Positions 1 to 57,387 of a stretch of DNA of 64,000 nucleotides are shown here, one piece after another (position 1 is the stretch's first letter; every line of letters begins with the position of its first letter). Source of the DNA: a virus; the IMG/VR virus record IMGVR_UViG_3300017991_000049, positions 128,001 through 192,000 of that record; one strand, given 5' to 3'. The notes beneath the pieces are model-generated. The model was not told where the DNA came from, did no database searches, and saw only the letters and a program-made list of their open reading frames with translations. The position numbers and the translations under genes were made by a program.

Positions 1-134
1 ACGACCCTTAATCTGCTTTACGACGTCGTCCGTAGGCACAACGACCGTCAGATGATCGCCGAGTGCTTTGGCTTCGCGAAGAAATTGGACGTGACCGGCG
101 TGGATAACGTCGTACGTCCCGCTGACAAGAACCT

Positions 135-890
135 TTACTTTCCGATCTGCCATCTGTAACTCCCGTGCTGATAGTCGAAGCTCGTGAAGCGATGCCGCTG
201 CGCCATTTCCGTGTAGACACGGACGAGCAACGTATGGATCGGCGCATCGCCCCAACGCTTCGTATAGATGCCACCGTGCTTCTCGATGGCTTCCAGCGCT
301 TCTTTGCACGGGGAGGTCAACCAGAGAGACGGCTTAGCGATATGGAAATTGTTGTAGTAGATCTTCCGGTCCCACTTGTAGGTACCGAAAGCAGGATCAT
401 GCGCACGCAGCATCGCCTTCAGGCCGCGGACCGCAGTCTTGGATTCTGGACGTGTCGCGCGCCACGCGTAGACCTTGTTGCCCTCTGCCATGACCTCGAA
501 CGGGTCGTCGTGCATCTTGGAGCGGATGTACGAGTCATCGTCGAGGCGCATGTAGTAGTCGAAGTCCTTCAACATCGGGTATAGGCCCAACGAGAAGAAC
601 CGGCACATGTTGCGGTAGCCGATGCTGTGCGACTGTGACAGCGTCCACTCGTTGAACTTGCTTACGTCGATGTGCGGCGGCGGCGAGATGTCGACCTGCT
701 TGAGCACTACACGCGCGCAGCGCTCTTGCATCTGCCGCAGATGCTCATCCGTGAAGTCGCCCTCGTGGCAGACGACGACTGGGTGTGGATGCGCATCCAG
801 CAGATTCTTCTGGAGCAGCTTCAGGCTTCTGAGCAGCTTGTCCAGTCTACGAGTCTGTGCCAAGTAGATGATCACTGTATTCATGGGCAT
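135..890 (-). CDS. Kre2/Mnt1-like (GT15-like) alpha-mannosyltransferase-type glycosyltransferase
   Basis: The translation has the motif '[18 protein letters not shown]', which resembles the 'SYRHMCRF' signature of GT15 mannosyltransferases. I chose the start at 890 (MPMNTVII) because a GAGGAG ribosome-binding site lies 5 nt upstream. Confidence 0.45.
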
Positions 891-1000
891 ACCACTCCTC
901 ACCACATACGGTCGCCCCAACCGCTCGATCCCCTGGAACGCCGCCTGGTGCCGATCGTTGAGTCAAGTCTAGCCGCGTGTACTTCGCAAGCAGAGGAACT

Positions 1001-1016
1001 TTGATCACATGATCAA
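1001..1016 (-). promoter_or_regulatory. Conserved 16-bp inverted repeat TTGATCA-N2-TGATCAA (copy 1)
   Basis: The plus strand reads ttgatcacatgatcaa. It belongs to a motif family of at least 10 copies and sits in an intergenic spacer. Confidence 0.45.
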
Positions 1017-1018
1017 AG

Positions 1019-1228
1019 TTAGACTACCGTCACGTTCTCCGCCTTGGGCCGTCCGCCCTTGCCCTCTCCCTCGGTGAAGTCGACCTGCTGGCCCTCGATG
1101 AGCGCATCAAAGTCCGACTTCTGGGGGAGCCCTGAACAGTGAAAGAATATGTCGGATCCGCCGGCGTCCGGCTGGATGAATCCAAAACCACGCTCCATCA
1201 CCAACTTCTTGATGGTGCCTCTTGCCAT
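1019..1228 (-). CDS. Cold-shock protein (CspA family)
   Basis: The 69-aa product starts 'MARGTIKKLVMERGFGFIQPD', with the RNP1-like GFGFI motif. An AGGAGAAG ribosome-binding site lies upstream. Confidence 0.85.
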   Translation of the reverse strand: MARGTIKKLVMERGFGFIQPDAGGSDIFFHCSGLPQKSDFDALIEGQQVDFTEGEGKGGRPKAENVTVV

Positions 1229-1266
1229 CTTCTTCTCCTAACGCTATCTAACGTGTTGTGCTGCGC

Positions 1267-1569
1267 TTAGTTAAGAATCGCGTACAGATCGGATTCCTTA
1301 GCCAGCACGTAATCAACTCCGTCAAGTGTAACGGTTTCCGCGTACGCTGAGAAGAGCACGCGGCTACCTACTGTCACCTGCTTGCAGTCGATTCCGACCG
1401 CTACAGCGGTGCCCGTCTGCGGCTTCTCGGTCGAGCCCTCGGGCAGTGTAATGCCACCAGGCGACATCGTTTCCCGCGGATCGGGCGTGATCAGCACGCG
1501 CTCTCCAATCGGCTTGCAGTCCACAGGATTGCACTTACACTTGTCATCACAAGCACATCCACTAGCCAT
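1267..1569 (-). CDS. GroES-like co-chaperonin with Cys-rich N-terminal extension
   Basis: The C-terminal two thirds carry GroES hallmarks: 'ITLPEGSTEKPQTGTAVAVG' and 'VLFSAYAETVTLDGVDYVLAKESDLYAILN'. The likely start at 1569 gives 'MASGCACDDKCKCNPVDCKPIG'. Confidence 0.6.
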   Translation of the reverse strand: MASGCACDDKCKCNPVDCKPIGERVLITPDPRETMSPGGITLPEGSTEKPQTGTAVAVGIDCKQVTVGSRVLFSAYAETVTLDGVDYVLAKESDLYAILN

Positions 1570-1571
1570 CT

Positions 1572-2453
1572 CTACTCTCCTTTGTGGTGGAAGACCTCTT
1601 CCATAGGTGCCCAGACTTCGCCTGGGGGTAATTCGCTGACGGGCTGCTGCAACGGTGTGCATAGCTTCCACCAGCGCTGTGTTTCCTCGTCCGCAGCCAT
1701 CTTGGCCATGTCAGCCTCGTAGTCGTCGCCGACGTACTCGTAGTAGCTGAACAGGTAATCGTTCCCATCCGGCAGACGCGCCGCAAAGATCGAGTAGTTG
1801 CGGATGTTGCACTCCTCGATCTTACTCAGAACGGTTGCCCACACTTCGGCATGCAGCCGCCGATACTCGGCAAGCTTGCCCGGCGTGACCTGCACGACCA
1901 TGCCGTAGCGGTTTGCAAGGCCCTTAGGCCAGATCGACTGTGCTAGGCTGCACCGCAGCTCGTCGACATCGAATACGACGTTGACGCCGAACACACGCCC
2001 CTGCACCAGGAAACCCCTGCGTGTCACCCACTCAACCTCGACCACTGCACGGTTCTCTGGGATCTCTGGTACCTTTTCATCGCCGTATGCGCGTGCTATG
2101 CGCTTGAATACAGGCGACAGGATGCAGAAGCCCTTGTTAAGGTCCGACACGCTTATGGTGCGCCCTTCTGGCTCAGCTGCGAATACCAGCAGGTCGGGGT
2201 GAGCATCCAGTACGATGCAGCGCTTCTCCGTGTCAACCTGGCGGTCGAGTTCGATCACGATATCGGGGTCGTCGCCAAAGTCCCACGGCAAGAACATCCG
2301 TACGCGGCTTTCCTTGTCGGTGAACGCCATGGGTAGCCCGGTGACACCCTCCGCCTCGATTGCCGCGGCCACGTTGGGCCGGCGCGGGCGCAGCCAGTTC
2401 ATAAACTCCGGCGTGATCTTGTATACATCGGTCGGCATCTTTGTACCTCGCAA
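1572..2453 (-). CDS. Protein with C-terminal L-rhamnose mutarotase (RhaM)-like domain
   Basis: The C-terminus reads 'NIRNYSIF...YLFSYYEYVGDDYEADMAKMAADEETQRWW', which matches the RhaM/DUF718 pattern. The N-terminal ~150 aa are unknown. An alternative start lies at 2438. Confidence 0.45.
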   Translation of the reverse strand: MRGTKMPTDVYKITPEFMNWLRPRRPNVAAAIEAEGVTGLPMAFTDKESRVRMFLPWDFGDDPDIVIELDRQVDTEKRCIVLDAHPDLLVFAAEPEGRTISVSDLNKGFCILSPVFKRIARAYGDEKVPEIPENRAVVEVEWVTRRGFLVQGRVFGVNVVFDVDELRCSLAQSIWPKGLANRYGMVVQVTPGKLAEYRRLHAEVWATVLSKIEECNIRNYSIFAARLPDGNDYLFSYYEYVGDDYEADMAKMAADEETQRWWKLCTPLQQPVSELPPGEVWAPMEEVFHHKGE

Positions 2454-2474
2454 CTACAAACTAAAGTGCGACTT

Positions 2475-2900
2475 TCACTCGTCGCCCAGTAGCTCCTCCC
2501 ATTTGTCAATACGACGTACGTCACTGTCGTCGTGGTATGTGCTGGACTCGTAGGCCCACGTGTCGTGTTCGGCGCTCAGCCGATGCCAGTCGCCAGGATG
2601 CAGCATGATCGACCAGCCGGGCTGCAGCCTAGCGATCTGCAATGCCACCATCGAGTGGATGCCGGTGCGCATCAGCTGTTCTGGGTCGCCCTGCAAATAC
2701 TCTACGACCAAACAGCCCGATTCGCAAGTAATTACCTCGGCCTTGATCGGATGCTTGTGAATGCTCGACTTCTTGCCCGCCTTGACGAACAGCGTCTTCT
2801 GGCACAGGTTGTGATTGACGTCATTGAGATGCCACGACTCGTAGCCCCAATCCTTCGGCACAAACTTCGCGGTTTGCACGGGAATGACTTCAGCTGCCAT
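2475..2900 (-). CDS. Cupin-domain protein (sugar isomerase/epimerase-like)
   Basis: The product has 'PKDWGYESW' and a later 'HPGDWHRL' His-containing cupin motif. A strong GAGGAGGAGG ribosome-binding site lies upstream. Confidence 0.45.
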   Translation of the reverse strand: MAAEVIPVQTAKFVPKDWGYESWHLNDVNHNLCQKTLFVKAGKKSSIHKHPIKAEVITCESGCLVVEYLQGDPEQLMRTGIHSMVALQIARLQPGWSIMLHPGDWHRLSAEHDTWAYESSTYHDDSDVRRIDKWEELLGDE

Positions 2901-3216
2901 CTTCCTCTTCCTCCTCCTCGGGGTCGCCGTATATCTGTTTAACGTCGGTCTTGAACTCAGTCTTACAGTGTGCGCAGGTCACAATGCAAGGGGCCATGAC
3001 CGGAAAACCCTCGTCGGGCTCGATATCGAGCGCGTGGTACACGAGGTTTTCCTCAATGAGCGAGCGGTAAGGCGGCATGATCGCACAGACGAAGTTCTGC
3101 CGTCCACACTCGTCACAATCCCACGCAAACGCGGGGTGTAGTTCGACTTCGATCACACCAGTAGCCCTGCACAGGTCAATATGATTAAGAGCGCCGCGCC
3201 GATGCCTGCTATCCAC
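2890..3216 (-). CDS. Small Cys-rich, acidic-tailed protein
   Basis: The product has CxxC-type pairs ('WDCDECG', 'CAHCK') and a poly-Glu C-terminus. It overlaps the start of the cupin gene. Confidence 0.3.
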   Translation of the reverse strand: MDSRHRRGALNHIDLCRATGVIEVELHPAFAWDCDECGRQNFVCAIMPPYRSLIEENLVYHALDIEPDEGFPVMAPCIVTCAHCKTEFKTDVKQIYGDPEEEEEEDGS

Positions 3217-3256
3217 ATCGCAATGGCGAATTCGCTTGGAAACAGATCGTTCATGG

Positions 3257-3907
3257 TTACTTAGGCGGCTTGGCGGCGCGTTCGACAGCCAAGCAGACCT
3301 CTCCGTCTTTCTCGATGAGTGTGTTCATGTCGTCGAACGGGATATACGCTCGGCCGTTTTTGCCCCAGTTTTGGCCCCATGAGTTCTTGATCCGGAACAG
3401 CCCGCGCTCCTTGGATACGCCAGTGACGAGGTAGGCATGCCCGCCGTAGTTTGGCCCTGTGGCCGACAGGACAGCGTCGGCGCCTGGCCGATCCATGCCC
3501 TTGTACCAGTTGGTGCCCACAACGACCGGTCCGCGCTCCAGCACGGCGTCGAGCAGCGTGTCCACGTCCCAGGCCCACTCGTATCGGTCGATCAGGCCGA
3601 GCATCTTGAGCACCTTGGCGCCTGCACGCACCGACGTGCCGTCGTAGTTGGTGCCCTTCCACTCGTCGTACTTCTTGCAGATCGTGTATAGGCCGTCGGG
3701 GTTGAGCCAGTGGCGGATCGGCGCGCTGGCCAGCCAGTGCGACCATGCAAAGCCCACACAATGCGGGGTGGCCTTCTGGTCCTGCCAGCAGCGATGATCC
3801 TGCCAGAAGCGATAGACGCGTTCGCTCGCTGTGCGTGGGATGCGGAATCGTCTGTCGCGGGCGTCGGGCTTGTAGCGCCGACCGTAGTTACGCTTGGGCA
3901 TTGTCAT
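3257..3907 (-). CDS. Papain-like (C1 family) cysteine peptidase
   Basis: The active-site Cys sits in 'HCVGFAWSHW', the His in 'GGHAYLVTG' and the Asn/Trp in 'NSWGQNWGKNGRAYIPF'. An AAGGAG ribosome-binding site lies upstream. Confidence 0.65.
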   Translation of the reverse strand: MTMPKRNYGRRYKPDARDRRFRIPRTASERVYRFWQDHRCWQDQKATPHCVGFAWSHWLASAPIRHWLNPDGLYTICKKYDEWKGTNYDGTSVRAGAKVLKMLGLIDRYEWAWDVDTLLDAVLERGPVVVGTNWYKGMDRPGADAVLSATGPNYGGHAYLVTGVSKERGLFRIKNSWGQNWGKNGRAYIPFDDMNTLIEKDGEVCLAVERAAKPPK

Positions 3908-4523
3908 GCTCCTTGTCTGGGTTTTGCCAACTTAGATCGTACCCGAAACGGCGATCGGCGTGAAACCAGGGCCTTACTGTGTTCCACAGCTCTGGCGTAT
4001 ACACCTGCCGAAAAGGTGGGTGCGCTGTATTGTAGTTGTCTTCCTGTATCGGCACCTGTGCGGCACCCACGTGCGCCATTACCTCATCGAATCCGCGCTG
4101 CATGTCCTCGAACGGTACGACGAATGACACGATCGTACGTCCGTACCCGGCGCCTGCCGATGCGCTCGTCCAATGCGCGTTGGGCAACCTGCCATAAGCA
4201 TGCGGCTGCAAGCCACGCACCCATTGTTCGAAGGATTTTCTACGAACACGTGAAGCCTGCATACGCTTTAAGAACCAGTAGAGCGACACCAAACGCGCCA
4301 TAGGGTGGCGCACGGTCGTAAACCACGTATAGTCACGACACTGCGCATACTGCGGCATCTTCTTGAACTCTGCCGGCGATGTGTGTTGATCAGCCTGACG
4401 CGGCCACCGCGGCATAAACCAACGCTCGGCGCCCAACTCGTCCTGCAGCGTCCGCCCTATCGACGAACTGGCGCAGCGCGGATTACAGAAGAACAACAGC
4501 TTGTAGTCGTGCGCAACTATCAC
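3888..4523 (-). CDS. Sulfotransferase-family protein
   Basis: The 5'-PSB-like motif is 'LLFFCNPRCASSSI' and the 3'-PB-like motif is 'TVRHPMARLVSLYWF'. Confidence 0.5.
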   Translation of the reverse strand: MIVAHDYKLLFFCNPRCASSSIGRTLQDELGAERWFMPRWPRQADQHTSPAEFKKMPQYAQCRDYTWFTTVRHPMARLVSLYWFLKRMQASRVRRKSFEQWVRGLQPHAYGRLPNAHWTSASAGAGYGRTIVSFVVPFEDMQRGFDEVMAHVGAAQVPIQEDNYNTAHPPFRQVYTPELWNTVRPWFHADRRFGYDLSWQNPDKEHDNAQA

Positions 4524-4855
4524 TGGACTAACACCTTGGAGATGTCGAGCAGTGCGTGACAGACGCGCAGGGCGTACTGGTTGGTATTGATCAGATCAGG
4601 CTCGAGGGCGTGGTCCTCTTCCAGCTCATCGTCGTCCTTCATGGTCTTGACGATCTCGTCCAGGTGCGCAATGCAGTCCTTGGCCGCACAGCTGCGGATG
4701 AACTCGCCATAGCGGGCAGTCAGCTCAGGTACGGTGGCGCCAGCGTCGCGCTCGGTGCGCAGCTTCGTGAGAAACTCCTCCAGCTCCTCGGCTGCTTCGC
4801 GCAACTCAACGGCCAGCTGGGACAACTGGTGCATGTATCGGACGCTACGTGACAT
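4520..4855 (-). CDS. Hypothetical acidic coiled-coil protein
   Basis: The ORF has a GGAGGAA ribosome-binding site upstream of the MSRSVRYM start. It packs tightly against its neighbours. Confidence 0.35.
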   Translation of the reverse strand: MSRSVRYMHQLSQLAVELREAAEELEEFLTKLRTERDAGATVPELTARYGEFIRSCAAKDCIAHLDEIVKTMKDDDELEEDHALEPDLINTNQYALRVCHALLDISKVLVQ

Positions 4856-5555
4856 GAAGTTCCTCCACGAGGTCTGCAACCTCTTCGCCAACTGGATAAC
4901 CGAACTCCTCGAACCATGCAAGGTACTTTTCTTCGATATGCTGGATATCGAAGTACGGCAGCCGCTGGTGGTAGCCGCCGATACCGACGTGCTGCCGGTG
5001 GCGCTGTTTGCCGTACAGGAAGCCCTGTTCCGGCTCGTATTCAGTGTTCAGCTCAGGTAGAATCTCGAGCTTGATTGCTATGTCTTCCAGCTGCCGATAG
5101 TCGAAGCTGTGGTCTGGGAACAGGTGCCTGGCCAGCATATCCAGCGTACCCACCTTGTTGACCATCATGCTCTCGAATCGGAGCCCCTTGGTCGCGCACG
5201 CCGTCCATTCGAACGCAGGCTCGACAAGCAGCGCCTCCATACCGACGAATACGCCATCGCAGAGTCCACGGCGCTTGTACGACTCGACTTCCAAGAGCTG
5301 GGCAGCTACAGCGCTGCAGAACGCGTCTCGCAGGTCGCGGACGATGGTGATGACTTTGTCGGCCGGGCGCCAGTCCACTGAGATGTCGTGGGTCTTGATA
5401 ACCTCGATGAACCCGGCCGGCGGCGGCTCATACGACTGAATATCGGTGGCATAGACGATGCCTGGGAACAGCTTCTCCGCCAGCATGCGCACGGCGTTGA
5501 ACGTCCACGTGGAGCCCGAACGGGCCATTGCCCCGACAACGATCCTGGTCATCAT
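4845..5555 (-). CDS. Sulfotransferase-domain protein
   Basis: The N-terminal 'GAMARSGSTW' is a PAPS-binding 5'-PSB motif of the PKSGTTW type. 'IVRDLRDAFCS' is 3'-PB-like. The start is ATGATG, directly after conserved motif copy 2. Confidence 0.6.
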   Translation of the reverse strand: MMTRIVVGAMARSGSTWTFNAVRMLAEKLFPGIVYATDIQSYEPPPAGFIEVIKTHDISVDWRPADKVITIVRDLRDAFCSAVAAQLLEVESYKRRGLCDGVFVGMEALLVEPAFEWTACATKGLRFESMMVNKVGTLDMLARHLFPDHSFDYRQLEDIAIKLEILPELNTEYEPEQGFLYGKQRHRQHVGIGGYHQRLPYFDIQHIEEKYLAWFEEFGYPVGEEVADLVEELHVT

Positions 5556-5556
5556 T

Positions 5557-5572
5557 TTGTTCCTGTGATCAA
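5557..5572 (-). promoter_or_regulatory. Conserved 16-bp motif (copy 2)
   Basis: The plus strand reads ttgttcctgtgatcaa. It fills the 19-nt gap between a stop codon and the ATGATG start. Confidence 0.45.
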
Positions 5573-5574
5573 AA

Positions 5575-6228
5575 TCAGCGTTCCATCATCTTCACCCGGT
5601 GCTGCGGGCCAGCAAGCGCCATCAGGTCGTCCTCCTGCTCTGGCGTAAGCCATTGCGGGATACCGACTAACGACGCGGCCACCAAGCTCTGCGCAGCGTC
5701 CTCGACGATCTGGCAGCGGAAGAACGCCTGTCGCATAGTCGTACCCAAGGCACAGAAGCCATGGTTGACCATGAAGATCGACTCGGCTTCCTTGGCAGCC
5801 TCCGCCATCCGGTCGGCTAGTTCCTGTGTGGTAGGCGTGACATACGGCACCGTGGCACGCCGGCCCAGATCATTGACTACCTCAGCGAACATCGCCCGTT
5901 GCGCCATATCTAGGCCTGAGCTGATCACGCCACACAGCCAAGGCGAATGTACGTGGAACACGGCGTGGATGTCTGGACGCGCTCGATAGATGGCCAGATG
6001 CATCTGGGTCTCAGACGTCGGCTTGTAGGTGCGCGTACGCGGCTTGCCGCTGTCGATCGCCACGGGGCACAGCTGACGTATGTGCAACTCACCCAGGGAC
6101 AACCCGCTCGGCGACAGCCAGGCGGTGTCGCCGTCGCGCGCACTGATGTTGCCGCCAGAGCCAACAACCAAGTGTGCGTCGTAGAGCTTCTTGCCGTATC
6201 GGACTAGGGCGTGTGTGATAGCACTCAT
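5575..6228 (-). CDS. Class II aldolase/adducin-family protein
   Basis: The product has 'GSGGNISARDGD', 'HVHSPW' and 'NHGFCALG'. The start at 6228 gives a TAATG overlap with the upstream stop codon. Confidence 0.6.
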   Translation of the reverse strand: MSAITHALVRYGKKLYDAHLVVGSGGNISARDGDTAWLSPSGLSLGELHIRQLCPVAIDSGKPRTRTYKPTSETQMHLAIYRARPDIHAVFHVHSPWLCGVISSGLDMAQRAMFAEVVNDLGRRATVPYVTPTTQELADRMAEAAKEAESIFMVNHGFCALGTTMRQAFFRCQIVEDAAQSLVAASLVGIPQWLTPEQEDDLMALAGPQHRVKMMER

Positions 6229-6989
6229 TAGCAATAGTTCTCGTACTGCAGGCCACCAGGAATTTCCACGATGGCCGACTGTTCGATCACGTGGCACCAG
6301 GAGAAGAGTTCGATCATGTAGGCTTCCTTCTTCACGTGGCAGTGCAGGCCGTCCACAGCGAGTTCCAGCGACACAGGAACGTCCTTGTGCATCATGCGGA
6401 TCTCGTGGACCGGTCCCATCGTAGAGCAGGCCAGCGCAATCATTACGCGCCGCTCGTGTGTGTTATCGAAGGACGCCTCGTCCCAGTCCCACGTCCATTT
6501 GGGCGACACGATGCGCCGCGGCATGTGCGGTAGGCCGCCAGCAGGGAACGGTCGCGGCTCGCACCAGCGAGGTAGCGCATCCACCATGGCGTAGCGCATG
6601 CCAACGGACAGCAGGGAGCTGAAATGCTCGTCATTCGCTGCCTGGTCTACCAACCAGCCCAGCGGATGCTTAGGCTCAGGCAGCCCGTCGAGCTTCTCTC
6701 CGCGGGACATGTGCATGCTAAGCGGTATCGTAGAGAACGGTACTGCCACAGCGCGCGTCCCCGTGGCTATGCCGTGCTTCTTCAGCACCTTGGCGTACTC
6801 GAGGATCTGCGTGGCGACCATGTCCGGTACGTCCGCAGTCTTGTCCGACTTGAGCTGGGACGCCATGCGCTCCTGTTCGGTCTTCATCAGTGCCTGCTCG
6901 GTTTCCATGTCACAGCCGTTGGCTGCCATCAGCGTGGACTGAGAGATCAGGCCGGCGCCTGCCAGCCCTAGAAAGCTTCTGCGTTTCAT
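6228..6989 (-). CDS. Tat-signal secreted protein of unknown function
   Basis: The N-terminus reads 'MKRRSFLGLAGAGLISQSTLMAANG', which contains the twin-arginine RRxFLG motif. Confidence 0.5.
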   Translation of the reverse strand: MKRRSFLGLAGAGLISQSTLMAANGCDMETEQALMKTEQERMASQLKSDKTADVPDMVATQILEYAKVLKKHGIATGTRAVAVPFSTIPLSMHMSRGEKLDGLPEPKHPLGWLVDQAANDEHFSSLLSVGMRYAMVDALPRWCEPRPFPAGGLPHMPRRIVSPKWTWDWDEASFDNTHERRVMIALACSTMGPVHEIRMMHKDVPVSLELAVDGLHCHVKKEAYMIELFSWCHVIEQSAIVEIPGGLQYENYC

Positions 6990-7024: not shown

Positions 7025-7053
7025 ATTGTTGCCCGGGCCGGGTTGTATGTCAA
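7025..7053 (-). promoter_or_regulatory. Candidate sigma70-type promoter
   Basis: The sense strand reads TTGACA, then a 17-nt spacer, then AACAAT. It lies about 40 nt upstream of the Tat-protein gene, inside the only longer spacer of the 0-7 kb cluster. Confidence 0.3.
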
Positions 7054-9762: not shown

Positions 9763-9770
9763 GGCTATCC

Positions 9771-10673: not shown

Positions 10674-10686
10674 CGTTCTCTCCTTG

Positions 10687-12183: not shown

Positions 12184-12822
12184 TTACCCCTCTGGGACAT
12201 AGAGACCTTCGAACAACTTCCAGTCGATCTGGTCGGTGATCTGGCGGATGTGTTCGGGCTTCAGTAGCTCCAAATACTGCTTTTCCGTGTAGTATTGGCG
12301 CTTGAACTTGTACTGAGGCATCCCTCCAGGGGTACTGCCTGGCCGTACAATCGTCTCCGGCAGCGCGTCCCAGCGCTTCTTCGGCGGGCCCAGCAGCTCG
12401 GTCATCGGCGCGTAGAGCGCGTCCAGCGACTCCAGCACGTCCTCGTACCGAACGATGGCCTTGTCGTACTTCGTCTTGAACCAGGCCCGGTAGAAGTTGT
12501 TGTACTGCCCGATGCGGTAGCCCAACTTCGCTGGCCCGTACGAAAACGGAATCTTGGTGTCGGGGATCTTGGTGCCCTGATGGCCTGCCTGCACTGCCCA
12601 TGCATGCCAACTGACGATCCACGCATAGGGATCCTTCAAATTGATCAGCAGAACAGTATTGAGCGGCCAATCTCTCGAGTCCTGTACTGTGCGGTGCTTG
12701 GTAGTACGCCCGCGCTTACCGCGGCGACCGACCAGGTGATTGTATCCCCAACCATCTTCCACCATCTTGCCACACATGGTCGTGCCAGAGCGTGGCAATC
12801 CTCGCTGTTGTACCTTACGCAT
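12184..12822 (-). CDS. Sulfotransferase-domain protein
   Basis: The N-terminal 'RGLPRSGTTM' is a 5'-PSB motif. Confidence 0.45.
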   Translation of the reverse strand: MRKVQQRGLPRSGTTMCGKMVEDGWGYNHLVGRRGKRGRTTKHRTVQDSRDWPLNTVLLINLKDPYAWIVSWHAWAVQAGHQGTKIPDTKIPFSYGPAKLGYRIGQYNNFYRAWFKTKYDKAIVRYEDVLESLDALYAPMTELLGPPKKRWDALPETIVRPGSTPGGMPQYKFKRQYYTEKQYLELLKPEHIRQITDQIDWKLFEGLYVPEG

Positions 12823-21568: not shown

Positions 21569-21591
21569 AAGAAGGGCGCCCGAAGGCGCCC
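21566..21591 (-). terminator. Rho-independent terminator
   Basis: The sense strand reads GGGCGCC-TTCG-GGCGCCC followed by TTCTTTTT. Confidence 0.5.
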
Positions 21592-21623
21592 CAGGTCAAA
21601 GGTCACCAGGCAACGCCTGCTCG

Positions 21624-22006: not shown

Positions 22007-22022
22007 TTGTTCATGTGATCAA
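22007..22022 (-). promoter_or_regulatory. Conserved 16-bp motif (copy 4)
   Basis: The context is identical to copy 3, an exact duplication of terminator plus motif plus ribosome-binding site. Confidence 0.5.
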
Positions 22023-22043
22023 AAAGGGCGCCCGAAGGCGCCC
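22021..22043 (-). terminator. Rho-independent terminator
   Basis: The hairpin is GGGCGCC-TTCG-GGCGCCC followed by a T-run. Confidence 0.5.
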
Positions 22044-22054
22044 CAGGTCAAAGG

Positions 22055-25291: not shown

Positions 25292-25498
25292 CTACTCGGC
25301 CATTGCCGCCATGGCAAATCCGTCGGCCAACCGTTGGCCGTACGTGGGCGTCTCATCCGTCTCCGCTTGCAGGAACGTGTCCGGCGCAGCCTGTACACGG
25401 ATATCGCGCTTGCGTGGGCGCGAGTCACGTACACGCAGTACGGACATGTCGCATCGGTGATGAACGCCGCGGTGACAGCCACAAATCTTGCAGTACAT
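25292..25498 (-). CDS. Small Cys/His-rich (zinc-binding?) protein
   Basis: The N-terminus reads 'MYCKICGCHRGVHHRCD'. Confidence 0.35.
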   Translation of the reverse strand: MYCKICGCHRGVHHRCDMSVLRVRDSRPRKRDIRVQAAPDTFLQAETDETPTYGQRLADGFAMAAMAE

Positions 25499-25569
25499 AG
25501 TAAGGTTCCTTGTAAAGAGGGAGGGGTAAGCTACTGGTCCAACATATTAGACTGCCGCGTTTTCGCATT

Positions 25570-25585
25570 TTGTTCACATGATCAA
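25570..25585 (-). promoter_or_regulatory. Conserved 16-bp motif (copy 6)
   Basis: The sense strand reads TTGATCATGTGAACAA and is preceded by terminator 25605..25628. Confidence 0.45.
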
Positions 25586-25604
25586 GATAGCTGATGGCTA
25601 AAAG

Positions 25605-27214: not shown

Positions 27215-27229
27215 GATCGGCTGAGGGCT

Positions 27230-37375: not shown

Positions 37376-38425
37376 CTAGCGTTGGAGTTCCGTCCATCCT
37401 GCCGCAAATTGCTTTCTGCGGTTCAACAGTCCGATGGACGCTTGCTTCTTCATCTTGACGATAAGTGCTCGGTCCTGCAAGGTGGACACGAGCGTATCCG
37501 CGAATTCCCTATAACCGGATATCACCTCCGGCACGCCAAGCCAGTTCTCCTTGGTCTTGGCTGGTACGAGCACGGAGTTCTTCCAGGATTTCAGGAATTC
37601 GTTTTGTGGGCGCATGTCCCACGAGAGCACGGGCGCACCCATGCACAACGAGTTCAGGCCGATAAGCCCGAAGCTCTCAAATCTGGACGCCCAAACGGTC
37701 AGGTCAGCCCGTGCGAACAGCATAAGCCTGTGCAAGATATTCGGATGGAGGACAAGCACGACTCTGTCACCGAACTGCTTACGTAGGTCTTTCACTATAC
37801 GCTTGGAAGACAATGACCATTTGCGTCCACAGGCAATCATCACGTTCGCGTGCGGTACCTCCGCCAATGTCCTGTGCATCATGTCGAATATCGCCTGATC
37901 GCTTCTTTGCGGTTGCGTATCATAGAGCGGGAAGTAGACACACAGGTTGTTGTGCGGTTCGTCGGTGTTCCTGCGAGAGATTGGGACAGGCACGTCCCAG
38001 GGCATCATGATCGGTGTAGTGCTGTCTAGCTGCCAATGCCGCTGGAGCGCATGACCGACACAACGATACGGGATGATGATCTTATCGAATGCGAGCACCG
38101 TGGCTGCGTCATTGGGTGTGAGTCGCTCCCACTCGATAAGCAGCGCGGTTTCAACGTCCAGGTGCTTGATGCGCCGCAGTTCGCGCTTCCTGGGCACGTG
38201 TGTCCAGATGATACGGCTGCAACGCTGTGCCCACTTGAGCAAGCGCTGTTGCCGCGCGCTGACTACTGCAGAATCCCAGACGCGGGCTACTTCACGACGT
38301 ACGACGCCCTTACCGTAGATGGTAGACGGCAGACCTTGATCCCTGGCCCTCTCGGCCAAATGGACCGCAGCATGCGCAACTTCGTGCTGCTGGTATCGGG
38401 TTATGATCCCGAGCCTGTCTGCCAT
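37376..38425 (-). CDS. GT-B fold (GT4-like) glycosyltransferase
   Basis: The C-terminal 'LTVWASRFESFGLIGLNSLCMGAPVLSWD' resembles the GT4 E-x7-E region. Confidence 0.5.
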   Translation of the reverse strand: MADRLGIITRYQQHEVAHAAVHLAERARDQGLPSTIYGKGVVRREVARVWDSAVVSARQQRLLKWAQRCSRIIWTHVPRKRELRRIKHLDVETALLIEWERLTPNDAATVLAFDKIIIPYRCVGHALQRHWQLDSTTPIMMPWDVPVPISRRNTDEPHNNLCVYFPLYDTQPQRSDQAIFDMMHRTLAEVPHANVMIACGRKWSLSSKRIVKDLRKQFGDRVVLVLHPNILHRLMLFARADLTVWASRFESFGLIGLNSLCMGAPVLSWDMRPQNEFLKSWKNSVLVPAKTKENWLGVPEVISGYREFADTLVSTLQDRALIVKMKKQASIGLLNRRKQFAAGWTELQR

Positions 38426-53165: not shown

Positions 53166-53656
53166 TAGCTGGCGGCCTCCGCTGCTTCTGATTCTTCTTC
53201 GCGCAGTTTGATACGCCGAGGCGCACGCTCCGCTAGCTCGGGCGGTGGCGTTTCGCCTGCGGCCACGTACAGATCGGCGTCACGCAACGCCGTCACTTCG
53301 TCGACGTAATCCTGCAGCGTTTCGAGCATGTACTGCGTGATATGCGCCTCCGCCTGCTCGCGAAAACGATCCCATATTTCTTTGGCGCGCTCGCCGAAAC
53401 TGTCGACGCGGTACCGCGCTTTAGTTTCGATGGCGCCGCTGGCATAGAAGCGCATAATATCGGAGCCATCGGTACGGCAGATCGACGTAGCTTTGCCCGG
53501 ATCCTTCCAGCGCGCCAGGAGCCGCGTGAATACGTCGAGCAGCTCCTCGTCCCAGTGGTACAGCTCCTGCTCAGCCTTGCGCGCCTTAATCTCCTCGTTA
53601 AGCCTTTCGTGCTCTTCGCTTGTCATAGGCATTATACATGCGGTCCCTCGGGACAC
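53165..53656 (-). CDS. Hypothetical acidic protein
   Basis: The ORF is well defined. Confidence 0.4.
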   Translation of the reverse strand: MSRGTACIMPMTSEEHERLNEEIKARKAEQELYHWDEELLDVFTRLLARWKDPGKATSICRTDGSDIMRFYASGAIETKARYRVDSFGERAKEIWDRFREQAEAHITQYMLETLQDYVDEVTALRDADLYVAAGETPPPELAERAPRRIKLREEESEAAEAAS

Positions 53657-54405
53657 TCCTCCTCTGCGAGAACCTCGTACATGTCACGGCCCCAGAAACT
53701 CGGAGTAAAGGGCCACAAGTTACACGTATCCGGCACACGGTCTTTGACCATCTCCGGACGCGTACGTGAGAGCGGTTTCTCGGCACCCGTCCATTCGGTG
53801 CCTAGGAACTCGCACACTTTCTGCATCGTACCCTGGTAATCGAGCATCAGCTCTTGGTACGTCACGATGGCGCGTGCCCATGGCATCCCGGTCACCATCT
53901 GCCAGAACGCGCCAGTCCGATTCACAAACTCAGCGCAGTTCTTCTCGTTGAAGATCGGTGTCTGTGACGCCAGCGGCCCCTCATCTAGCGTGCGCACCCA
54001 CACGTTGTCCGCCATGCAGACGCAGTTGGAGATGTACACAGCCATCGGGTTGCGCGACATGACCACTACTTTCATGTCAGTGTCGCCCAACGCCAGCGGT
54101 ACGATTTCCGGGCGCTTATAGAACGACGCGTCGATGATCTTGTAGCCATAGTGCGTCTCGCAGTCCTGTGCGAGTGCAGGCAGCACCTTGTCGTTGAACC
54201 ATGCAGACTCCGCTTGCGGCGCCAGCGGTACGCCGCCCTCTAACGGTACGCCTTCTTGCTCACACGCGACAATACGGTGGGTGTTGTTCGGGTTGAACAG
54301 CTCACGCCAGCACATGCGTACGCCCGGGACCTGATTCAGCGATGCTGCCATCAGCGTCGTCCCCGACCTCGCCATCCCGATCACCGCTATCTTCTGCTTC
54401 GGCAT
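53632..54405 (-). CDS. Sulfotransferase-domain protein
   Basis: The N-terminal 'IAVIGMARSGTTLM' is a 5'-PSB motif. Confidence 0.5.
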   Translation of the reverse strand: MPKQKIAVIGMARSGTTLMAASLNQVPGVRMCWRELFNPNNTHRIVACEQEGVPLEGGVPLAPQAESAWFNDKVLPALAQDCETHYGYKIIDASFYKRPEIVPLALGDTDMKVVVMSRNPMAVYISNCVCMADNVWVRTLDEGPLASQTPIFNEKNCAEFVNRTGAFWQMVTGMPWARAIVTYQELMLDYQGTMQKVCEFLGTEWTGAEKPLSRTRPEMVKDRVPDTCNLWPFTPSFWGRDMYEVLAEEECPEGPHV

Positions 54406-56168: not shown

Positions 56169-56582
56169 TCATTGAATACGTGCAGCGAAGCCGAGCCAGA
56201 AACGGAAGTCTCCGTCGACCTCCTGGATCGGGTCGCCGATGATGATGTGGGTGCGCAGCGCATTGGGCACTGCTTCAATGTAGCGCTGGATTGCATCCAT
56301 CGCACCGAGCATCGCCTTGACCGGATCTTGACTGGTCCGATAAGGCAACAACGGGATGCGAACAAGGTCGCCATCCCTGGTTAGGCTCCACGCCAATGGG
56401 CCGTCTGGCCTCGAGAACTGTAGCGGCTCAGCGCGCGCTTTCCAAATCTCGTTCTCACCGCGGCGAAGCACCTGCTGGATTAGCGGGTTGCCCGTGTGCG
56501 GATCGGTGGGGAGCTCCTCCGCTTCAAGGAACGGAGTCATGTCGAATATTTGTGCAGTGTAGTCACGGGACATGTTTGCCAT
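56169..56582 (-). CDS. Hypothetical protein
   Basis: The ORF is well defined. Confidence 0.35.
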   Translation of the reverse strand: MANMSRDYTAQIFDMTPFLEAEELPTDPHTGNPLIQQVLRRGENEIWKARAEPLQFSRPDGPLAWSLTRDGDLVRIPLLPYRTSQDPVKAMLGAMDAIQRYIEAVPNALRTHIIIGDPIQEVDGDFRFWLGFAARIQ

Positions 56583-57387
56583 CCAGTACGTCGAAGAGTG
56601 TTGGGTGGTTACGGATACGCGGTGCGGGCGCTTCGGGCGGTTCGCACCTGTAAGTTACACCGATCGGCTGTTGAGAAAAACCGCGCCGGGACGCTGTTGA
56701 GCATTTTCCGCTCTCGTTGGCGTTGATGGCCAACCCCGTAGTGAACTTGCCCATCTTGTAGCCATGCTGATGGCACAGGGCGCCAAGCATCACGTCGCCG
56801 CCGTTGTGTTCGAAGTCCTTCGGCGGCCAGTCATGCCGTTTCAGGATATCCGTCCGGATGCACCACCACCCGCCTGTGATGAACGAAATACGGGCATGCT
56901 GCGGCACCGGCTTGCCATTGAACCACGGCTGATCCCTGATGTACTGCGCCTGATGCCCCCGAAGGTTCATCAGGTACGGCGCGCCCACCATGGCATGATT
57001 CTGCATCTTGTCGTCAAGTATGCCGAACCACAGTTGCGGGTCTCGATTGCTGTCCAATAGCCACGAGTCATCGTCGAACCAGATGGTGTACTTCGTATCG
57101 ATGCCTGGGTGCCCGTCGTTCAACGTCGCATCTGGTGTACCGTGGAACATGCGCCGCATCAGCGGATACTTGTAGTACGGCTGCTCTCCACGATACACGT
57201 CGGTGATCGGGACATATATGTGCCGGCGCAGCACAGTCTCAGTATCCCTGCAGACGTTGTTCAACCCGACACGCATGTCGAAGTAGTCGGCCCACCCCGC
57301 ACGACCGAGCGACTCTAAGAGCCGCTCGGCCAAGTCGGGATGTTTGCCGTAGAACAGAGCACAAATTGTGAACTGCTTGTTTGCCAT
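56563..57387 (-). CDS. GT-A fold glycosyltransferase (DxD-type)
   Basis: The DxD motif sits in 'TIWFDDDSWLL'. The N-terminus reads 'FTICALFYG'. Confidence 0.45.
   Translation of the reverse strand: MANKQFTICALFYGKHPDLAERLLESLGRAGWADYFDMRVGLNNVCRDTETVLRRHIYVPITDVYRGEQPYYKYPLMRRMFHGTPDATLNDGHPGIDTKYTIWFDDDSWLLDSNRDPQLWFGILDDKMQNHAMVGAPYLMNLRGHQAQYIRDQPWFNGKPVPQHARISFITGGWWCIRTDILKRHDWPPKDFEHNGGDVMLGALCHQHGYKMGKFTTGLAINANESGKCSTASRRGFSQQPIGVTYRCEPPEAPAPRIRNHPTLFDVLDGKHVP

What the first reader, a model, noticed from the sequence alone, without database searches (positions are those of the whole stretch)
135..6989. Phage-borne glycan-modification and sulfation toolkit (sulfotransferases, glycosyltransferases, sugar-enzyme folds)
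A contiguous block carries a Kre2/GT15-like mannosyltransferase, a rhamnose-mutarotase-like domain protein, a cupin, a papain-like peptidase, two sulfotransferase-motif proteins, a class II aldolase and a Tat-exported protein. A possible sigma70-type promoter lies upstream at 7025..7053. Two further sulfotransferase-motif genes (12184..12822, 53632..54405) and two more glycosyltransferases (37376..38425, 56563..57387) are scattered through the structural and replication modules. Four PAPS-type sulfotransferases in one phage segment is highly unusual. Together with the secreted and PEP-CTERM proteins, it suggests the phage rewrites a sulfated surface glycan of its host, such as exopolysaccharide, capsule or glycoprotein. 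This could serve superinfection exclusion or virion glycan decoration. I have not seen such a phage system described.
Basis: partly seen in the sequence, partly recalled or inferred. Interest (0 to 1): 0.75.

Follow-up and report, generated by a model that had tools for sequence, protein, structure and literature searches.

The report
Jumbo-phage sulfated-glycan synthesis island
A roughly 226 kb uncultured phage from sediments carries a conserved block of sugar-adding and sulfate-adding enzymes, at least six sulfotransferases in all. This suggests the phage makes a sulfated sugar coat, something not yet shown for any phage, although what gets coated is still unknown.

Summary
All four proposed sulfotransferases (STs) are ST-superfamily proteins: two by Pfam, one by predicted fold, one by family profile. 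GT15, RhaM, cupin, papain-like peptidase and class II aldolase are also confirmed. One scattered glycosyltransferase (37376-38425) is weakly supported. The other (56563-57387) is not. The promoter match is no better than chance.

The DNA is phage. The window is 100% identical to part of a ~226.5 kb metagenome contig. It carries UvsX-like, split PolA, ThyX and exonuclease genes and is syntenic with IMG/VR viral contigs.

The island is larger than reported. It continues ~5 kb past the window start with a cytidylyltransferase, GT25, two GT2-like genes and two Sulfotransfer_4 genes.

At least five further distinct related phage versions, from deep-sea, lake-sediment and other metagenomes, show 3-4 STs within ~20 kb. 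A core is conserved about as well as the replication genes. Around it sits a variable shell.

Best reading: a cytoplasmic pathway that builds and sulfates a glycan. The acceptor is unresolved; I lean towards virion proteins over host envelope glycans.

This is a new, sulfation-rich variant of known large-virus glycan clusters (jumbo cyanophage "LPS" clusters, Megavirinae fibril clusters).

The parts
1..153 (-). First 51 codons of a 366-aa cytidylyltransferase (HIGH-family, 'HAGH' motif) with a possible sugar-kinase C-terminal half. The gene is cut by the window edge and the island continues beyond it.
   Evidence: Translation. Full gene in L007 12286-13386: Pfam CTP_transf_like 1.9e-10. PDB hits: ethanolamine-P cytidylyltransferase 2e-14 and TagD 5e-11. 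The C-terminal half gives only weak fucokinase hits, E 0.1-0.3.
135..884 (-). GT15 (Kre2/Mnt1-like) glycosyltransferase, 249 aa as called. It is soluble, with no membrane anchor.
   Evidence: Pfam PF01793 3e-23. Homologues: unnamed metagenomic ~250-aa proteins. All named hits are eukaryotic, almost all fungal, at 33% identity or less. No TM segment. Present in relative L006 at 57%.
1019..1228 (-). Cold-shock domain protein, embedded in the island at a conserved position.
   Evidence: Pfam CSD 5.6e-18. 73-78% identical in L006, L016 and L017.
1267..1569 (-). GroES/Cpn10 co-chaperonin, embedded in the island at a conserved position.
   Evidence: Pfam Cpn10 9e-16. Gene aa. Present in all relatives.
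1572..2438 (-). 288-aa protein: unknown N-terminal half plus a C-terminal L-rhamnose-mutarotase domain. Part of the variable shell.
   Evidence: Pfam rhaM 2.5e-28 and TIGR02625 1e-11. Exact product on 10 contigs. Absent from relatives.
2475..2900 (-). Cupin, D-lyxose/mannose-isomerase-like sugar isomerase. Part of the core.
   Evidence: Pfam Lyx_isomer 2.4e-8. phrog_7851 9e-18. 47-50% identical in all relatives.
2890..3156 (-). 88-aa CxxC...CxxC (zinc-ribbon-like) protein of unknown function.
   Evidence: Gene call. 61-62% identical in L006 and L017. No Pfam hit.
3257..3901 (-). Papain-like cysteine peptidase, overlapping the 3' end of the Sulfotransfer_2 gene by a few bases.
   Evidence: Pfam Peptidase_C1 1.6e-5. 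phrog_16701 4e-52. Homologues in 70 GenBank phage records, not in glycan clusters in XacN1 or Wakanda. 63% identical in L017.
3888..4523 (-). Sulfotransferase, Sulfotransfer_2 (carbohydrate-ST-type) family. Part of the variable shell.
   Evidence: Pfam 3.7e-10. phrog_3347 'Gal-3-O-sulfotransferase' 2e-5. Motifs NPRCASSS and VRHPMARLVS.
4520..4855 (-). 111-aa conserved protein of unknown function. Part of the core.
   Evidence: Gene call. 35-46% identical in L006, L016 and L017.
4845..5555 (-). Sulfotransferase of a lineage-specific family. Part of the core.
   Evidence: AF2 pLDDT 88. The 50 top Foldseek PDB hits are all STs. Motifs GAMARSGSTW, KTH and RDLRDAFCS are invariant or near-invariant in 12 homologues. 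42-61% identical in all relatives.
5575..6228 (-). Class II aldolase/epimerase (fuculose-/ribulose-phosphate type). Part of the variable shell.
   Evidence: Pfam Aldolase_II 3.8e-40. NCBIfam FucA-like 4e-30, far below the equivalog cutoffs. phrog_13212 3e-34. Cyanophage homologues.
6228..6989 (-). 253-aa protein with a twin-arginine (RRSFLGLAGAG) N-terminus. It is the only predicted exported product of the island and its function is unknown.
   Evidence: Sequence. No Pfam, NCBIfam or PHROG hit. No homologue in relatives.
7025..7053 (-). Sigma-70-like hexamer pair in the 151-nt gap upstream of the island.
   Evidence: TTGACA-17-AACAAT, 10 of 12 matches. One site found against 2.3 expected by chance. 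Not evidence of function.
12184..12822 (-). Sulfotransferase of a distant Sulfotransfer_3/TPST-like family. It lies among large proteins of unknown function.
   Evidence: 26 of 57 family members hit Sulfotransfer_3. Profile against PDB: CurM ST 1.5e-8, TPST1 2e-6. AF2 pLDDT 93; the top 30 Foldseek hits are STs but weak. PRSGTT and KH motifs present. 43% identical in L006.
37376..38425 (-). Probable GT-B (GT4-like) glycosyltransferase outside the island.
   Evidence: Pfam Glycos_transf_1 7e-6, 26.1 bits against a cutoff of 26.4. phrog_2170 glycosyltransferase 2e-7. Weak PDB GT-B hits.
53632..54405 (-). Sulfotransferase (Sulfotransfer_3/1) inserted in the replication module. Gene callers start it at a downstream Met, giving 239 aa.
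   Evidence: Pfam 1e-13 / 8.5e-11. Precomputed Pfam on the contig. Absent at the syntenic spot in IMG/VR relatives L001-L003.
56563..57387 (-). 274-aa conserved protein with a DDD motif.
   Evidence: No Pfam, NCBIfam, PHROG or PDB-profile hit. 46-47% identical in L001-L003.

Best explanation
The block is the window's part of a ~12 kb island in a ~226 kb uncultured jumbo phage. In window terms it runs from 6989 to about 5 kb past the window start.

**What the island encodes (shown by domain identities):**
- Soluble, cytoplasmic sugar-handling enzymes: a cupin isomerase, a mutarotase-domain protein, a class II aldolase, and a cytidylyltransferase with a possible anomeric-kinase half.
- Several glycosyltransferases: GT15, GT25 and two GT2-like, plus one with fucosyltransferase-like motifs.
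- Sulfotransferases of at least four unrelated families.

**Inferred mechanism.** During infection the enzymes take host NDP-sugars, and perhaps one phage-activated sugar, to assemble an oligosaccharide. They then O-sulfate it at several positions using host PAPS.

**Core and shell.** A core set is kept across the lineage at core-gene-like identity. It comprises the 4845-type ST, the cupin, a 272-aa GT-A-like protein, a GT2-like protein and Sulfotransfer_4. A shell of extra GTs, STs and sugar enzymes varies between relatives and would diversify the glycan.

**Acceptor (inferred, not shown).** My committed guess is the phage's own virion proteins, giving a polyanionic sulfated glycan coat. This would parallel virion glycosylation in mycobacteriophages and the fibril glycosylation clusters of Megavirinae.
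For: **It is a phage.**
- The window is 100% identical to a stretch of a 226.5 kb contig. The same phage was assembled at more than 200 kb in four read blocks.
- It carries UvsX-like, split T5-like PolA, ThyX, exonuclease and peptide deformylase genes, and several PHROG-only families.
- It is syntenic with three IMG/VR viral contigs, one of 153 kb.

**Enzyme identities.**

**The island extends past the window.** It adds two strong Sulfotransfer_4 genes (1.8e-32, 2.7e-36), GT25, GT2-like genes and a cytidylyltransferase.

**Lineage-wide conservation.**
- L006, L016 and L017 share the order ST - cupin - GroES - CSD - GT - GT - ST4.
- Identities are 42-68% for the ST, cupin, GT-like and ST4 core proteins, against 46-80% for replication proteins in the L001-L003 relatives.
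- L006, L016, L017, L026/L027 and L028 each hold 3-4 ST genes within ~20 kb; two short contigs show only ST4 and the most distant locus, L030 (43%), none.

**Favouring a cytoplasmic, phage-intrinsic acceptor.**
- No TM segment or signal peptide in any island enzyme.
- No Pfam-detectable priming transferase, flippase or polymerase in about 84 kb examined.
- The core is conserved across phages from deep-sea sediment, lake sediment and other metagenomes.
- The island starts right after very large (682-1393 aa) low-complexity or repeat-containing proteins.

**Precedents.** A Megavirinae fibril cluster holds ST + papain-like + GTs (PMC10117803). Mycobacteriophage virion glycans are described by Freeman 2023, as cited in PMC12619734.
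Against: - No virion protein was identified in the window. Pfam and PHROGs were silent on all large ORFs, so 'next to structural genes' is an assumption.
- No sulfated glycan has been reported on any phage particle.
- No PAPS-synthesis gene (SAT/APS kinase) was seen, unlike the Moumouvirus cluster. However, about 140 kb of the genome was not examined.
- O-antigen GTs are also usually soluble or peripheral, so lack of TM segments does not exclude action on host lipid-linked glycans.
- The phage also encodes a Tat-signal protein and a PEP-CTERM-type protein. It therefore does send products to the host envelope.
- Several GT assignments are weak, and substrates are unknown for every enzyme.
Confidence: 0.42

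Rival explanations
1. Host-surface remodelling. The same enzymes act on the host's lipid-linked LPS, capsule or exopolysaccharide intermediates. The infected or pseudolysogenic cell then displays an altered, sulfated surface glycan that blocks superinfecting phages or alters released-virion re-adsorption.
For: - This is the standard interpretation of multi-GT 'LPS' clusters in jumbo cyanophages. Those clusters have cupin isomerases, sugar kinases, HIGH nucleotidyltransferases and many GT families (PMC1079782, PMC7824862).
- Aldolase homologues occur in such cyanophages next to heptose genes.
- The variable shell of GTs and STs differs between relatives, like O-antigen loci.
- The phage encodes a Tat-signal protein in the island and a PEP-CTERM-type protein elsewhere. 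This implies an exosortase- and EPS-bearing Gram-negative host.
Against: - No membrane-embedded modification enzymes (Gtr-like), flippase, polymerase or priming transferase were found.
- The core enzymes are conserved at core-gene level across phages from very different habitats. That is unexpected if they must track fast-evolving host glycans.
- No integrase or lysogeny genes were seen in the 64 kb window.
Confidence: 0.3
2. Non-glycan or mixed acceptors. Some or all of the STs sulfate something other than a sugar. Examples are tyrosines of phage or host proteins (TPST/RaxST-like chemistry) or a small metabolite or secondary product. The GTs would then serve an unrelated task.
For: - The 12184-type family profile hits tyrosylprotein sulfotransferases (2e-6) and the CurM polyketide ST (1.5e-8) best.
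- The 4845-type model resembles small-molecule STs such as Teg14/Teg12 and cytosolic SULTs.
- Two STs (12184 and 53632) lie outside the island, away from any GT.
- Jumbo cyanophages are proposed to carry secondary-metabolite-like clusters.
Against: - In every relative, STs sit interleaved with GTs and sugar enzymes.
- Sulfotransfer_2 is the carbohydrate-ST family, and its PHROG label is galactose-3-O-ST.
- Fold-level nearest neighbours do not predict the acceptor.
Confidence: 0.15
3. DNA hypermodification. The GTs, and conceivably the STs, decorate modified bases of the phage genome to evade restriction, as in T4 and other phages with glycan-modified DNA.
For: - Virus GTs that add diverse glycans to DNA are known (Pyle 2024, cited in PMC12619734).
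- ThyX, the 56563-57387 protein and one ST sit in the replication module.
Against: - No hydroxymethylase or other base-modifying enzyme was detected. ThyX is an ordinary thymidylate synthase family.
- The main island is far from the replication genes.
- GT15, GT25 and the sugar-isomerase/aldolase genes have no DNA-modification precedent.
- Sulfated DNA is unknown.
Confidence: 0.04
4. Not phage-encoded. The block is host chromosome or another mobile element mis-joined to phage DNA.
For: - No capsid, portal or terminase gene could be recognised in the window.
- A GT15 homologue (45%) sits on a 1.42 Mb bacterial-type contig.
Against: - The same junctions are assembled independently on contigs of 226.5 kb, 150.7 kb and 12.3 kb from different runs.
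- GC content and strand bias are uniform across the island and the rest of the window.
- The island occupies the same place, between the same flanking genes, in divergent relatives.
- STs are also interspersed far inside the window.
Confidence: 0.03

Closest known systems
Jumbo cyanophage 'LPS / capsular polysaccharide modification' gene clusters (P-SSM2, S-SM2 and others; Sullivan 2005 PMC1079782; Iyer et al. 2021 PMC7824862 section 3.4.10)
   Same: - A large phage genome.
- A contiguous cluster with a cupin sugar isomerase, a HIGH-superfamily nucleotidyltransferase, a possible sugar kinase and several GTs of different families.
- Gene content that varies between related phages.
- The class II aldolase has homologues in these cyanophages.
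   Different: - The phage is unrelated at sequence level (no megablast or tblastn similarity).
- The window phage has no NAD-dependent epimerase/dehydratase paralogues, which are the hallmark there.
- It has six or more sulfotransferases of at least four families; that review does not mention sulfation at all.
- A GT15 is present.
- Part of the cluster is conserved as a core rather than occurring sporadically.
Megavirinae (Moumouvirus australiensis, Cotonvirus) fibril-glycosylation clusters (Notaro et al. 2022, PMC10117803)
   Same: - A virus-encoded cluster that mixes GTs and sugar-nucleotide enzymes with a sulfotransferase and adjacent papain-like proteins.
- It is proposed to put (possibly sulfated) glycans on the virion.
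- Content is clade-specific.
- Here too, the Sulfotransfer_2 gene abuts a papain-like peptidase gene.
   Different: - Those are eukaryote-infecting giant viruses.
- They have one ST plus their own SAT/APS kinase. No PAPS-synthesis gene was found in the ~84 kb examined here.
- Sulfation is unproven there too.
Mycobacteriophage virion glycosylation (Freeman et al. 2023, cited in PMC12619734)
   Same: Phage-encoded cytoplasmic GTs modify the phage's own capsid and tail proteins. This is the only experimentally shown phage analogue of the favoured mechanism.
   Different: - It involves one or two GTs, with no sulfation and no sugar-activation genes.
- The hosts are actinobacteria.
- No sequence relationship was tested or seen.
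Single sulfotransferase 'auxiliary metabolic genes' in phages (OM43 phage MVGs, Synechococcus phage S-SRM01; PMC10580990; PMC8290583; phrog_3347)
   Same: PAPS-type ST domains encoded by phages. Their function is explicitly stated to be unclear.
   Different: - Those are isolated single genes.
- Here there are multiple families, tandem copies, co-location with GTs and lineage-wide conservation.
- None of the four ST types queried matches any GenBank phage by tblastn.
Fungal Kre2/Mnt1 GT15 alpha-1,2-mannosyltransferases
   Same: A Pfam GT15 catalytic domain well above threshold, with a YYxR(L/V)-acidic-x-D type motif (YYMRLDDD).
   Different: - No type II membrane anchor or stem; the match starts at profile position 56.
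- 33% identity or less to any named eukaryotic protein.
- The nearest relatives are unnamed ~250-aa metagenomic proteins, plus one on a 1.42 Mb contig carrying bacterial-type genes.

Membership tests
PAPS-dependent sulfotransferase superfamily (four window ORFs) | Sulfotransferase fold or family-profile match | tested here: met
   - 3888-4523: Pfam ST_2 3.7e-10.
- 53632-54405: ST_3 1e-13.
- 4845-5555: all 50 top Foldseek PDB hits are STs.
- 12184-12822: family profile hits CurM ST and TPST, and 26 of 57 members hit ST_3. Its Foldseek support is weak.
PAPS-dependent sulfotransferase superfamily (four window ORFs) | 5'-phosphosulfate-binding loop near the N-terminus (PKxGTT / xRSG(S/T)T) | tested here: met
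   NPRCASSS, ARSGSTW, PRSGTT and ARSGTT at residues 10-20 of the four proteins. Invariant in the 4845 family.
PAPS-dependent sulfotransferase superfamily (four window ORFs) | 3'-phosphate-binding motif (R-x-P/x...S after strand 3) | tested here: met
   VRHPMARLVS, VRDLRDAFCS and SRNPMAVYIS. The 12184 family has K-D-P-Y-x-W-x-x-S, with K in place of R; K62, P64 and S70 are invariant or nearly invariant.
PAPS-dependent sulfotransferase superfamily (four window ORFs) | PAPS-dependent sulfate transfer to a defined acceptor | not testable with these tools
   Needs enzyme assays.
GT15 (Kre2/Mnt1) mannosyltransferases | GT15 catalytic domain above the Pfam gathering score | tested here: met
   83 bits against a cutoff of 25, covering profile positions 56-323 of 325.
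GT15 (Kre2/Mnt1) mannosyltransferases | Type II membrane anchor and stem (Golgi lumenal enzyme) | tested here: not met
   No hydrophobic segment. The protein begins at the catalytic domain.
GT15 (Kre2/Mnt1) mannosyltransferases | GDP-mannose alpha-1,2 transfer | not testable with these tools
Jumbo-phage surface-polysaccharide ('LPS') modification cluster (Iyer 2021 / Sullivan 2005) | Encoded by a jumbo (over 200 kb) tailed phage | tested here: inconclusive
   The contig size (226.5 kb) and phage replication genes are met. Tail, capsid and terminase genes were not identified.
Jumbo-phage surface-polysaccharide ('LPS') modification cluster (Iyer 2021 / Sullivan 2005) | Several GTs of different families together with a cupin isomerase and a HIGH nucleotidyltransferase | tested here: met
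   GT15, GT25, two GT2-like genes, cupin and CTP_transf_like.
Jumbo-phage surface-polysaccharide ('LPS') modification cluster (Iyer 2021 / Sullivan 2005) | 1-4 NAD-dependent epimerase/dehydratase paralogues | tested here: not met
   None in the window phage's island. One is present in relative L016.
Jumbo-phage surface-polysaccharide ('LPS') modification cluster (Iyer 2021 / Sullivan 2005) | Acts on the host outer polysaccharide | not testable with these tools
   This is hypothetical even for the cyanophages.
Megavirinae-type virion glycosylation cluster with sulfate module | ST together with GTs and papain-like proteins in one cluster | tested here: met
   3257-3901 (papain-like) abuts 3888-4523 (ST_2) inside the GT island. 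Compared with ma461-ma464 in PMC10117803.
Megavirinae-type virion glycosylation cluster with sulfate module | Own sulfate-activation enzyme (SAT/APS kinase) | tested here: not met
   No such Pfam hit in about 84 kb examined. The remaining ~140 kb of the genome was not seen.
Serotype-converting Gtr-type O-antigen modification | Membrane proteins GtrA, GtrB and GtrC | tested here: not met
   No TM proteins in the island and no such Pfam hits.
Tat-exported protein (6228-6989) | S/T-R-R-x-F-L-K motif followed by a hydrophobic stretch at the N-terminus | tested here: met
   MKRRSFLGLAGAGLISQSTLMAANGC. This is motif-level only; no dedicated predictor was available.

The most novel reading that the evidence does not exclude
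A whole lineage of uncultured jumbo phages, found in deep-sea and lake sediments and other habitats, uses a conserved, self-encoded cytoplasmic pathway to coat its own virions with a multiply sulfated glycan. This would be a heparan- or mucin-like polyanionic glycocalyx. A further TPST-like enzyme may sulfate virion proteins directly. It would be the first sulfated glycoconjugate made by a phage and a bacterial-virus counterpart of giant-virus fibril glycosylation.
Probability: 0.35. Interest if true: 0.85.

Novelty: new variant of a known kind. Interest (0 to 1): 0.62.

Why it matters
Sulfated glycans are central to host-virus recognition in animals, but no phage is known to make one. Phage sulfotransferases are currently filed as auxiliary genes of unclear function.

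Here the genes are numerous and belong to several families. They are interleaved with glycosyltransferases and conserved across a phage lineage. This turns a vague annotation into a testable hypothesis: a virus-directed sulfated glycan.

If the glycan sits on virions, it would extend virion glycosylation from actinophages and giant viruses to jumbo phages of Gram-negative hosts. It would also add a new chemistry, with consequences for adsorption, particle stickiness in sediments and immune or defence evasion.

If it sits on the host, it would be a new type of surface conversion.

Either way, the island is a compact source of new soluble carbohydrate sulfotransferases and of a bacterial-world GT15.

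Tried and rejected
**Look-ups and searches that led nowhere**
- Exact-product look-ups failed for three ORFs because my start codons differed from the gene caller's.
- Megablast of 25 kb, and tblastn of UvsX, the 560-aa ORF and four ST types against GenBank phages, found nothing.
- IMG/VR pattern scans for the ST_2, the 4845-type ST and GT15 found no relatives. The A2 alignment was too divergent to scan.

**Sequence-only tests of the 4845-type ST**
- These failed: phmmer and profile against PDB, and hhalign against the other STs.
- Only the structure prediction settled it.

**Profiles of three other proteins**
- Profiles of the 56563-57387 protein, the conserved 272-aa GT-A-like protein and the 243-aa protein against PDB gave nothing.
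- The 243-aa protein has GLxNRL / HVRRTD / SSFS motifs that I recall from fucosyltransferases. These calls stay at motif level.

**Other negatives**
- Pfam and PHROGs found no capsid, portal, terminase or tail gene among the large ORFs. The 'structural module' label is therefore unverified.
- The host could not be identified.

**Ideas considered and dropped**
- A haloarchaeal host (Tat, high GC, saline sediment) was dropped because of GroES and the PEP-CTERM-type tail.
- A giant eukaryotic virus origin was considered because accession SDBU01 appears in a giant-virus paper. It was dropped because SDBU01 is the whole Loki's Castle metagenome assembly, and the genes are bacterial or phage type.
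- A role for the papain-like peptidase in glycan processing was considered. In XacN1 and Wakanda its homologues are not near glycan genes.

Full report

Nearly all ORFs of the window lie on the minus strand, tightly packed, at 57-64% GC and with no tRNA genes.

Pfam confirms the following:
- GT15 at 135-920, E 3e-23.
- A C-terminal RhaM domain in 1572-2453, E 2.5e-28.
- A lyxose-isomerase-type cupin at 2475-2900, E 2e-8.
- A papain-like peptidase at 3257-3907, E 1.6e-5. The PHROG peptidase family gives 4e-52.
- Sulfotransfer_2 at 3888-4523, E 3.7e-10.
- Aldolase_II at 5575-6297, E 4e-40.
- Sulfotransfer_3/_1 at 53632-54405, E 1e-13.

Two proposed sulfotransferases needed more work.
- **4845-5555.** The Pfam hit is only 0.038, and sequence profiles against PDB failed. 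An AlphaFold model built on 12 homologues has pLDDT 88. All 50 of its top PDB matches are PAPS sulfotransferases. The family keeps an invariant RSGSTW loop, a near-invariant KTH and an RDxRDAFxS motif.
- **12184-12822.** The protein has no Pfam hit. A full HMMER search found 62 homologues. Of the 57 that were aligned, 26 hit Sulfotransfer_3. The family profile hits the CurM sulfotransferase (1.5e-8) and tyrosylprotein sulfotransferase (2e-6) in PDB. A pLDDT-93 model has sulfotransferases as its top 30 hits, but weakly.

So all four are sulfotransferase-superfamily proteins.

The Tat-like N-terminus MKRRSFLGLAGAG is present.

The weaker points are these:
- The promoter-like site is a genuine 10-of-12 match. 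It is one hit where 2.3 are expected by chance.
- 37376-38425 is only marginally GT-B-like.
- 56563-57387 has no support as a glycosyltransferase.

**2. Phage or host?**

The window is 100% identical to part of a 226.5 kb metagenome contig. It is 99.8% identical to a 150.7 kb contig from another sample. Other assemblies carry the same junctions.

The window carries these phage-type genes:
- A UvsX-like recombinase.
- The C-terminal part of a split family-A polymerase, closest to T5-like phages (~31% identity).
- ThyX, a DnaQ-like exonuclease and peptide deformylase.
- An HD phosphohydrolase and several families known only from phages.

Window 49-64 kb is collinear with three IMG/VR viral contigs, one of 153 kb. 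GC content and strand bias do not change across the island.

I could not recognise capsid, portal or terminase genes. The 'structural module' is therefore unverified. Overall, an uncultured jumbo phage with no cultured relative is by far the best reading.

**3. The island is larger than the finding.**

The window edge cuts a gene. Window 1-153 encodes the first 51 residues of a 366-aa cytidylyltransferase. On the near-identical contigs the island continues as follows:
- The cytidylyltransferase. PDB matches are ethanolamine-P cytidylyltransferase and TagD. Its C-terminal half gives only faint fucokinase hits.
- A 272-aa GT-A-like protein.
- GT25 (2.4e-9).
- A GT2-like protein.
- Two tandem Sulfotransfer_4 genes (1.8e-32 and 2.7e-36).
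- A 243-aa protein whose motifs recall fucosyltransferases. This rests on my memory and is unconfirmed.

The phage therefore has at least six sulfotransferases from at least four families. No island enzyme has a signal peptide or membrane segment. Only the 253-aa Tat-signal protein is predicted to be exported.

**4. Relatives.**

Homologues of the 4845-type ST and of the 272-aa protein led to related contigs. Their sources include the following:
- The Loki's Castle deep-sea sediment assembly.
- JGI metagenome 3300025133, the same metagenome as the 153 kb IMG/VR relative.
- JGI metagenome 3300029267.
- The Ga01804xx sediment series. The window phage itself also occurs in JGI 3300017971 (Ga0180438).

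All share the order: large proteins, then 4845-type ST, small protein, cupin, GroES, CSD, 272-aa GT-like, GT2-like, Sulfotransfer_4. Identities are 42-68% for the ST, cupin, GT-like and ST4 core proteins (39-78% when the embedded GroES and CSD are included). Replication proteins in the other relatives are in the same range, 46-80%.

Around this core, the content differs.
- **Window phage only:** aldolase, Tat protein, Sulfotransfer_2, RhaM protein, cytidylyltransferase, GT25 and a second ST4 copy.
- **Relatives instead carry:** a methyltransferase, GT47/exostosin, a beta-helix protein, Nucleotid_trans, a GDP-mannose-dehydratase-type epimerase, and other ST_2, ST_3 or Stf0-like genes.

Using my own HMMs, L006, L016, L017, L026/L027 and L028 each show 3-4 ST genes within ~20 kb. 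One shows three tandem ST_2-like genes. Two shorter contigs show only ST4. The most distant locus (L030, 43%) showed none. Multiplicity of sulfotransferases next to GTs is thus a lineage trait, not a one-off.

**5. Mechanism.**

*Shown.* Domain identities, cytoplasmic location by sequence, clustering and conservation.

*Inferred.* The GTs assemble an oligosaccharide from NDP-sugars. The mutarotase, cupin isomerase, class II aldolase and cytidylyltransferase (with its possible kinase half) resemble the steps of deoxyhexose handling. They could supply an activated unusual sugar. The STs add sulfate from host PAPS at several positions. The variable shell diversifies the product.

*The acceptor is the open question.* I lean to virion proteins (0.42) for four reasons:
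- The core behaves like core genome across habitats.
- No lipid-carrier machinery is present.
- The island follows very large low-complexity or repeat proteins.
- There are precedents: mycobacteriophage virion glycans, and the Moumouvirus fibril cluster, which contains a sulfotransferase flanked by papain-like genes. That arrangement echoes 3257-3901 / 3888-4523 here.

Host-surface remodelling (0.30) is the classical reading of cyanophage LPS clusters. It is helped by the Tat-signal and PEP-CTERM-type proteins.

Other readings are less likely. Non-glycan acceptors, for example tyrosine sulfation by the TPST-like 12184 family, get 0.15. DNA modification gets 0.04 and a non-phage origin 0.03.

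**6. Comparison and novelty.**

The kind is known. Multi-gene glycan clusters occur in jumbo cyanophages (PMC1079782, PMC7824862) and in giant viruses (PMC10117803). Single phage sulfotransferases have been noted with 'function unclear' (PMC10580990).

What is new:
- The density and diversity of sulfotransferases.
- Their conservation as part of a lineage core.
- The presence of a GT15. All named homologues of this family are eukaryotic, almost all fungal, at 33% identity or less. One 45% homologue sits on a 1.42 Mb contig carrying bacterial-type genes.

A full-text search found no paper combining sulfotransferase, glycosyltransferase and jumbo phage. The jumbo-phage review does not mention sulfation. 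None of the four ST types queried matches any of 50,697 GenBank phage records.

I rate it a new variant of a known kind, with interest 0.62.

Noticed in passing
window 27956-28732 (-): A 258-aa protein with an N-terminal hydrophobic signal and a C-terminal PEP-CTERM-type tail (ITPEPSTITMLIIGTCVLLAHRHRKEK). Pfam PEP-CTERM gives 17.3 bits, just under the cutoff of 20.7, and there is a partial DUF4394 match. A phage-encoded exosortase substrate would point to an exosortase- and EPS-bearing Gram-negative host.
   Followed up: partly
window 53632-54405 (-) compared with L001-L003: The Sulfotransfer_3/1 gene in the replication module is missing from the syntenic spot in three IMG/VR relatives, where the gap is only ~500 nt. 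It therefore looks like a lineage-specific insertion.
   Followed up: partly
window 21569-21612 and 22021-22064: Two 98%-identical 44-nt intergenic copies (74 nt at 96% by blastn) contain a GC-rich hairpin, GGGCGCC-CGAA-GGCGCCC. Each lies just downstream of a small minus-strand gene. They are probably repeated terminators after highly expressed genes.
   Followed up: no
window 25542-25607 and 27171-27236: A 66-nt AT-rich intergenic repeat (74% identical) sharing TTGTTCACATGATCAAGAT. One copy lies just upstream of the 467-aa gene at 25771-27174 and the other upstream of the next gene (25425-25754). It is possibly a phage-specific promoter or regulatory element.
   Followed up: no
window 11188-11547, inside ORF 10687-12138 (-): In-frame tandem repeats of 63 and 147 nt (21 and 49 aa units) lie within a 483-aa protein of unknown function next to the 12184 sulfotransferase. 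This suggests a fibrous or repeat structural protein.
   Followed up: no
window 13528-14691 and 14692-15858 (-): Two adjacent ORFs of 387 and 388 aa share a repeated segment (82% over 39 nt at the same relative position). They are probably tandem paralogues. Neither has a Pfam or PHROG hit.
   Followed up: no
window 7141-9762 (-): An 873-aa protein that is 12% Pro, 15% Ala, 13% Gly and 9% Gln, with long PAxQ-type low-complexity runs and a Gly-rich hydrophobic segment at residues 636-657. It lies directly upstream of the island. Relatives have 682-1393 aa proteins at the same position. It may be a virion or ejection protein and a possible glycan acceptor.
   Followed up: no
window 63100-63936 (-), 51825-52712 (-), 52713-53165 (-): A split family-A DNA polymerase: only the C-terminal 278 aa form this ORF, which is 80-83% identical in relatives. 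ThyX and a peptide deformylase lie in the same module.
   Followed up: partly
L018 (ENA ERZ28669063 ctg73275, 1.42 Mb) 9095-10738: A 45%-identical GT15 homologue sits on a 1.42 Mb contig carrying bacterial-type genes. It is next to a Nucleotid_trans gene and near Ku/LigD. GT15 therefore seems to exist in some uncultured bacteria, which may hint at the host lineage.
   Followed up: no
window 57381-58373: My longest-ORF pick here was on the plus strand. The metagenome gene call places a 324-aa DUF1016_N (nuclease-like) gene on the minus strand in the same interval (L015 4346-5320).
   Followed up: no
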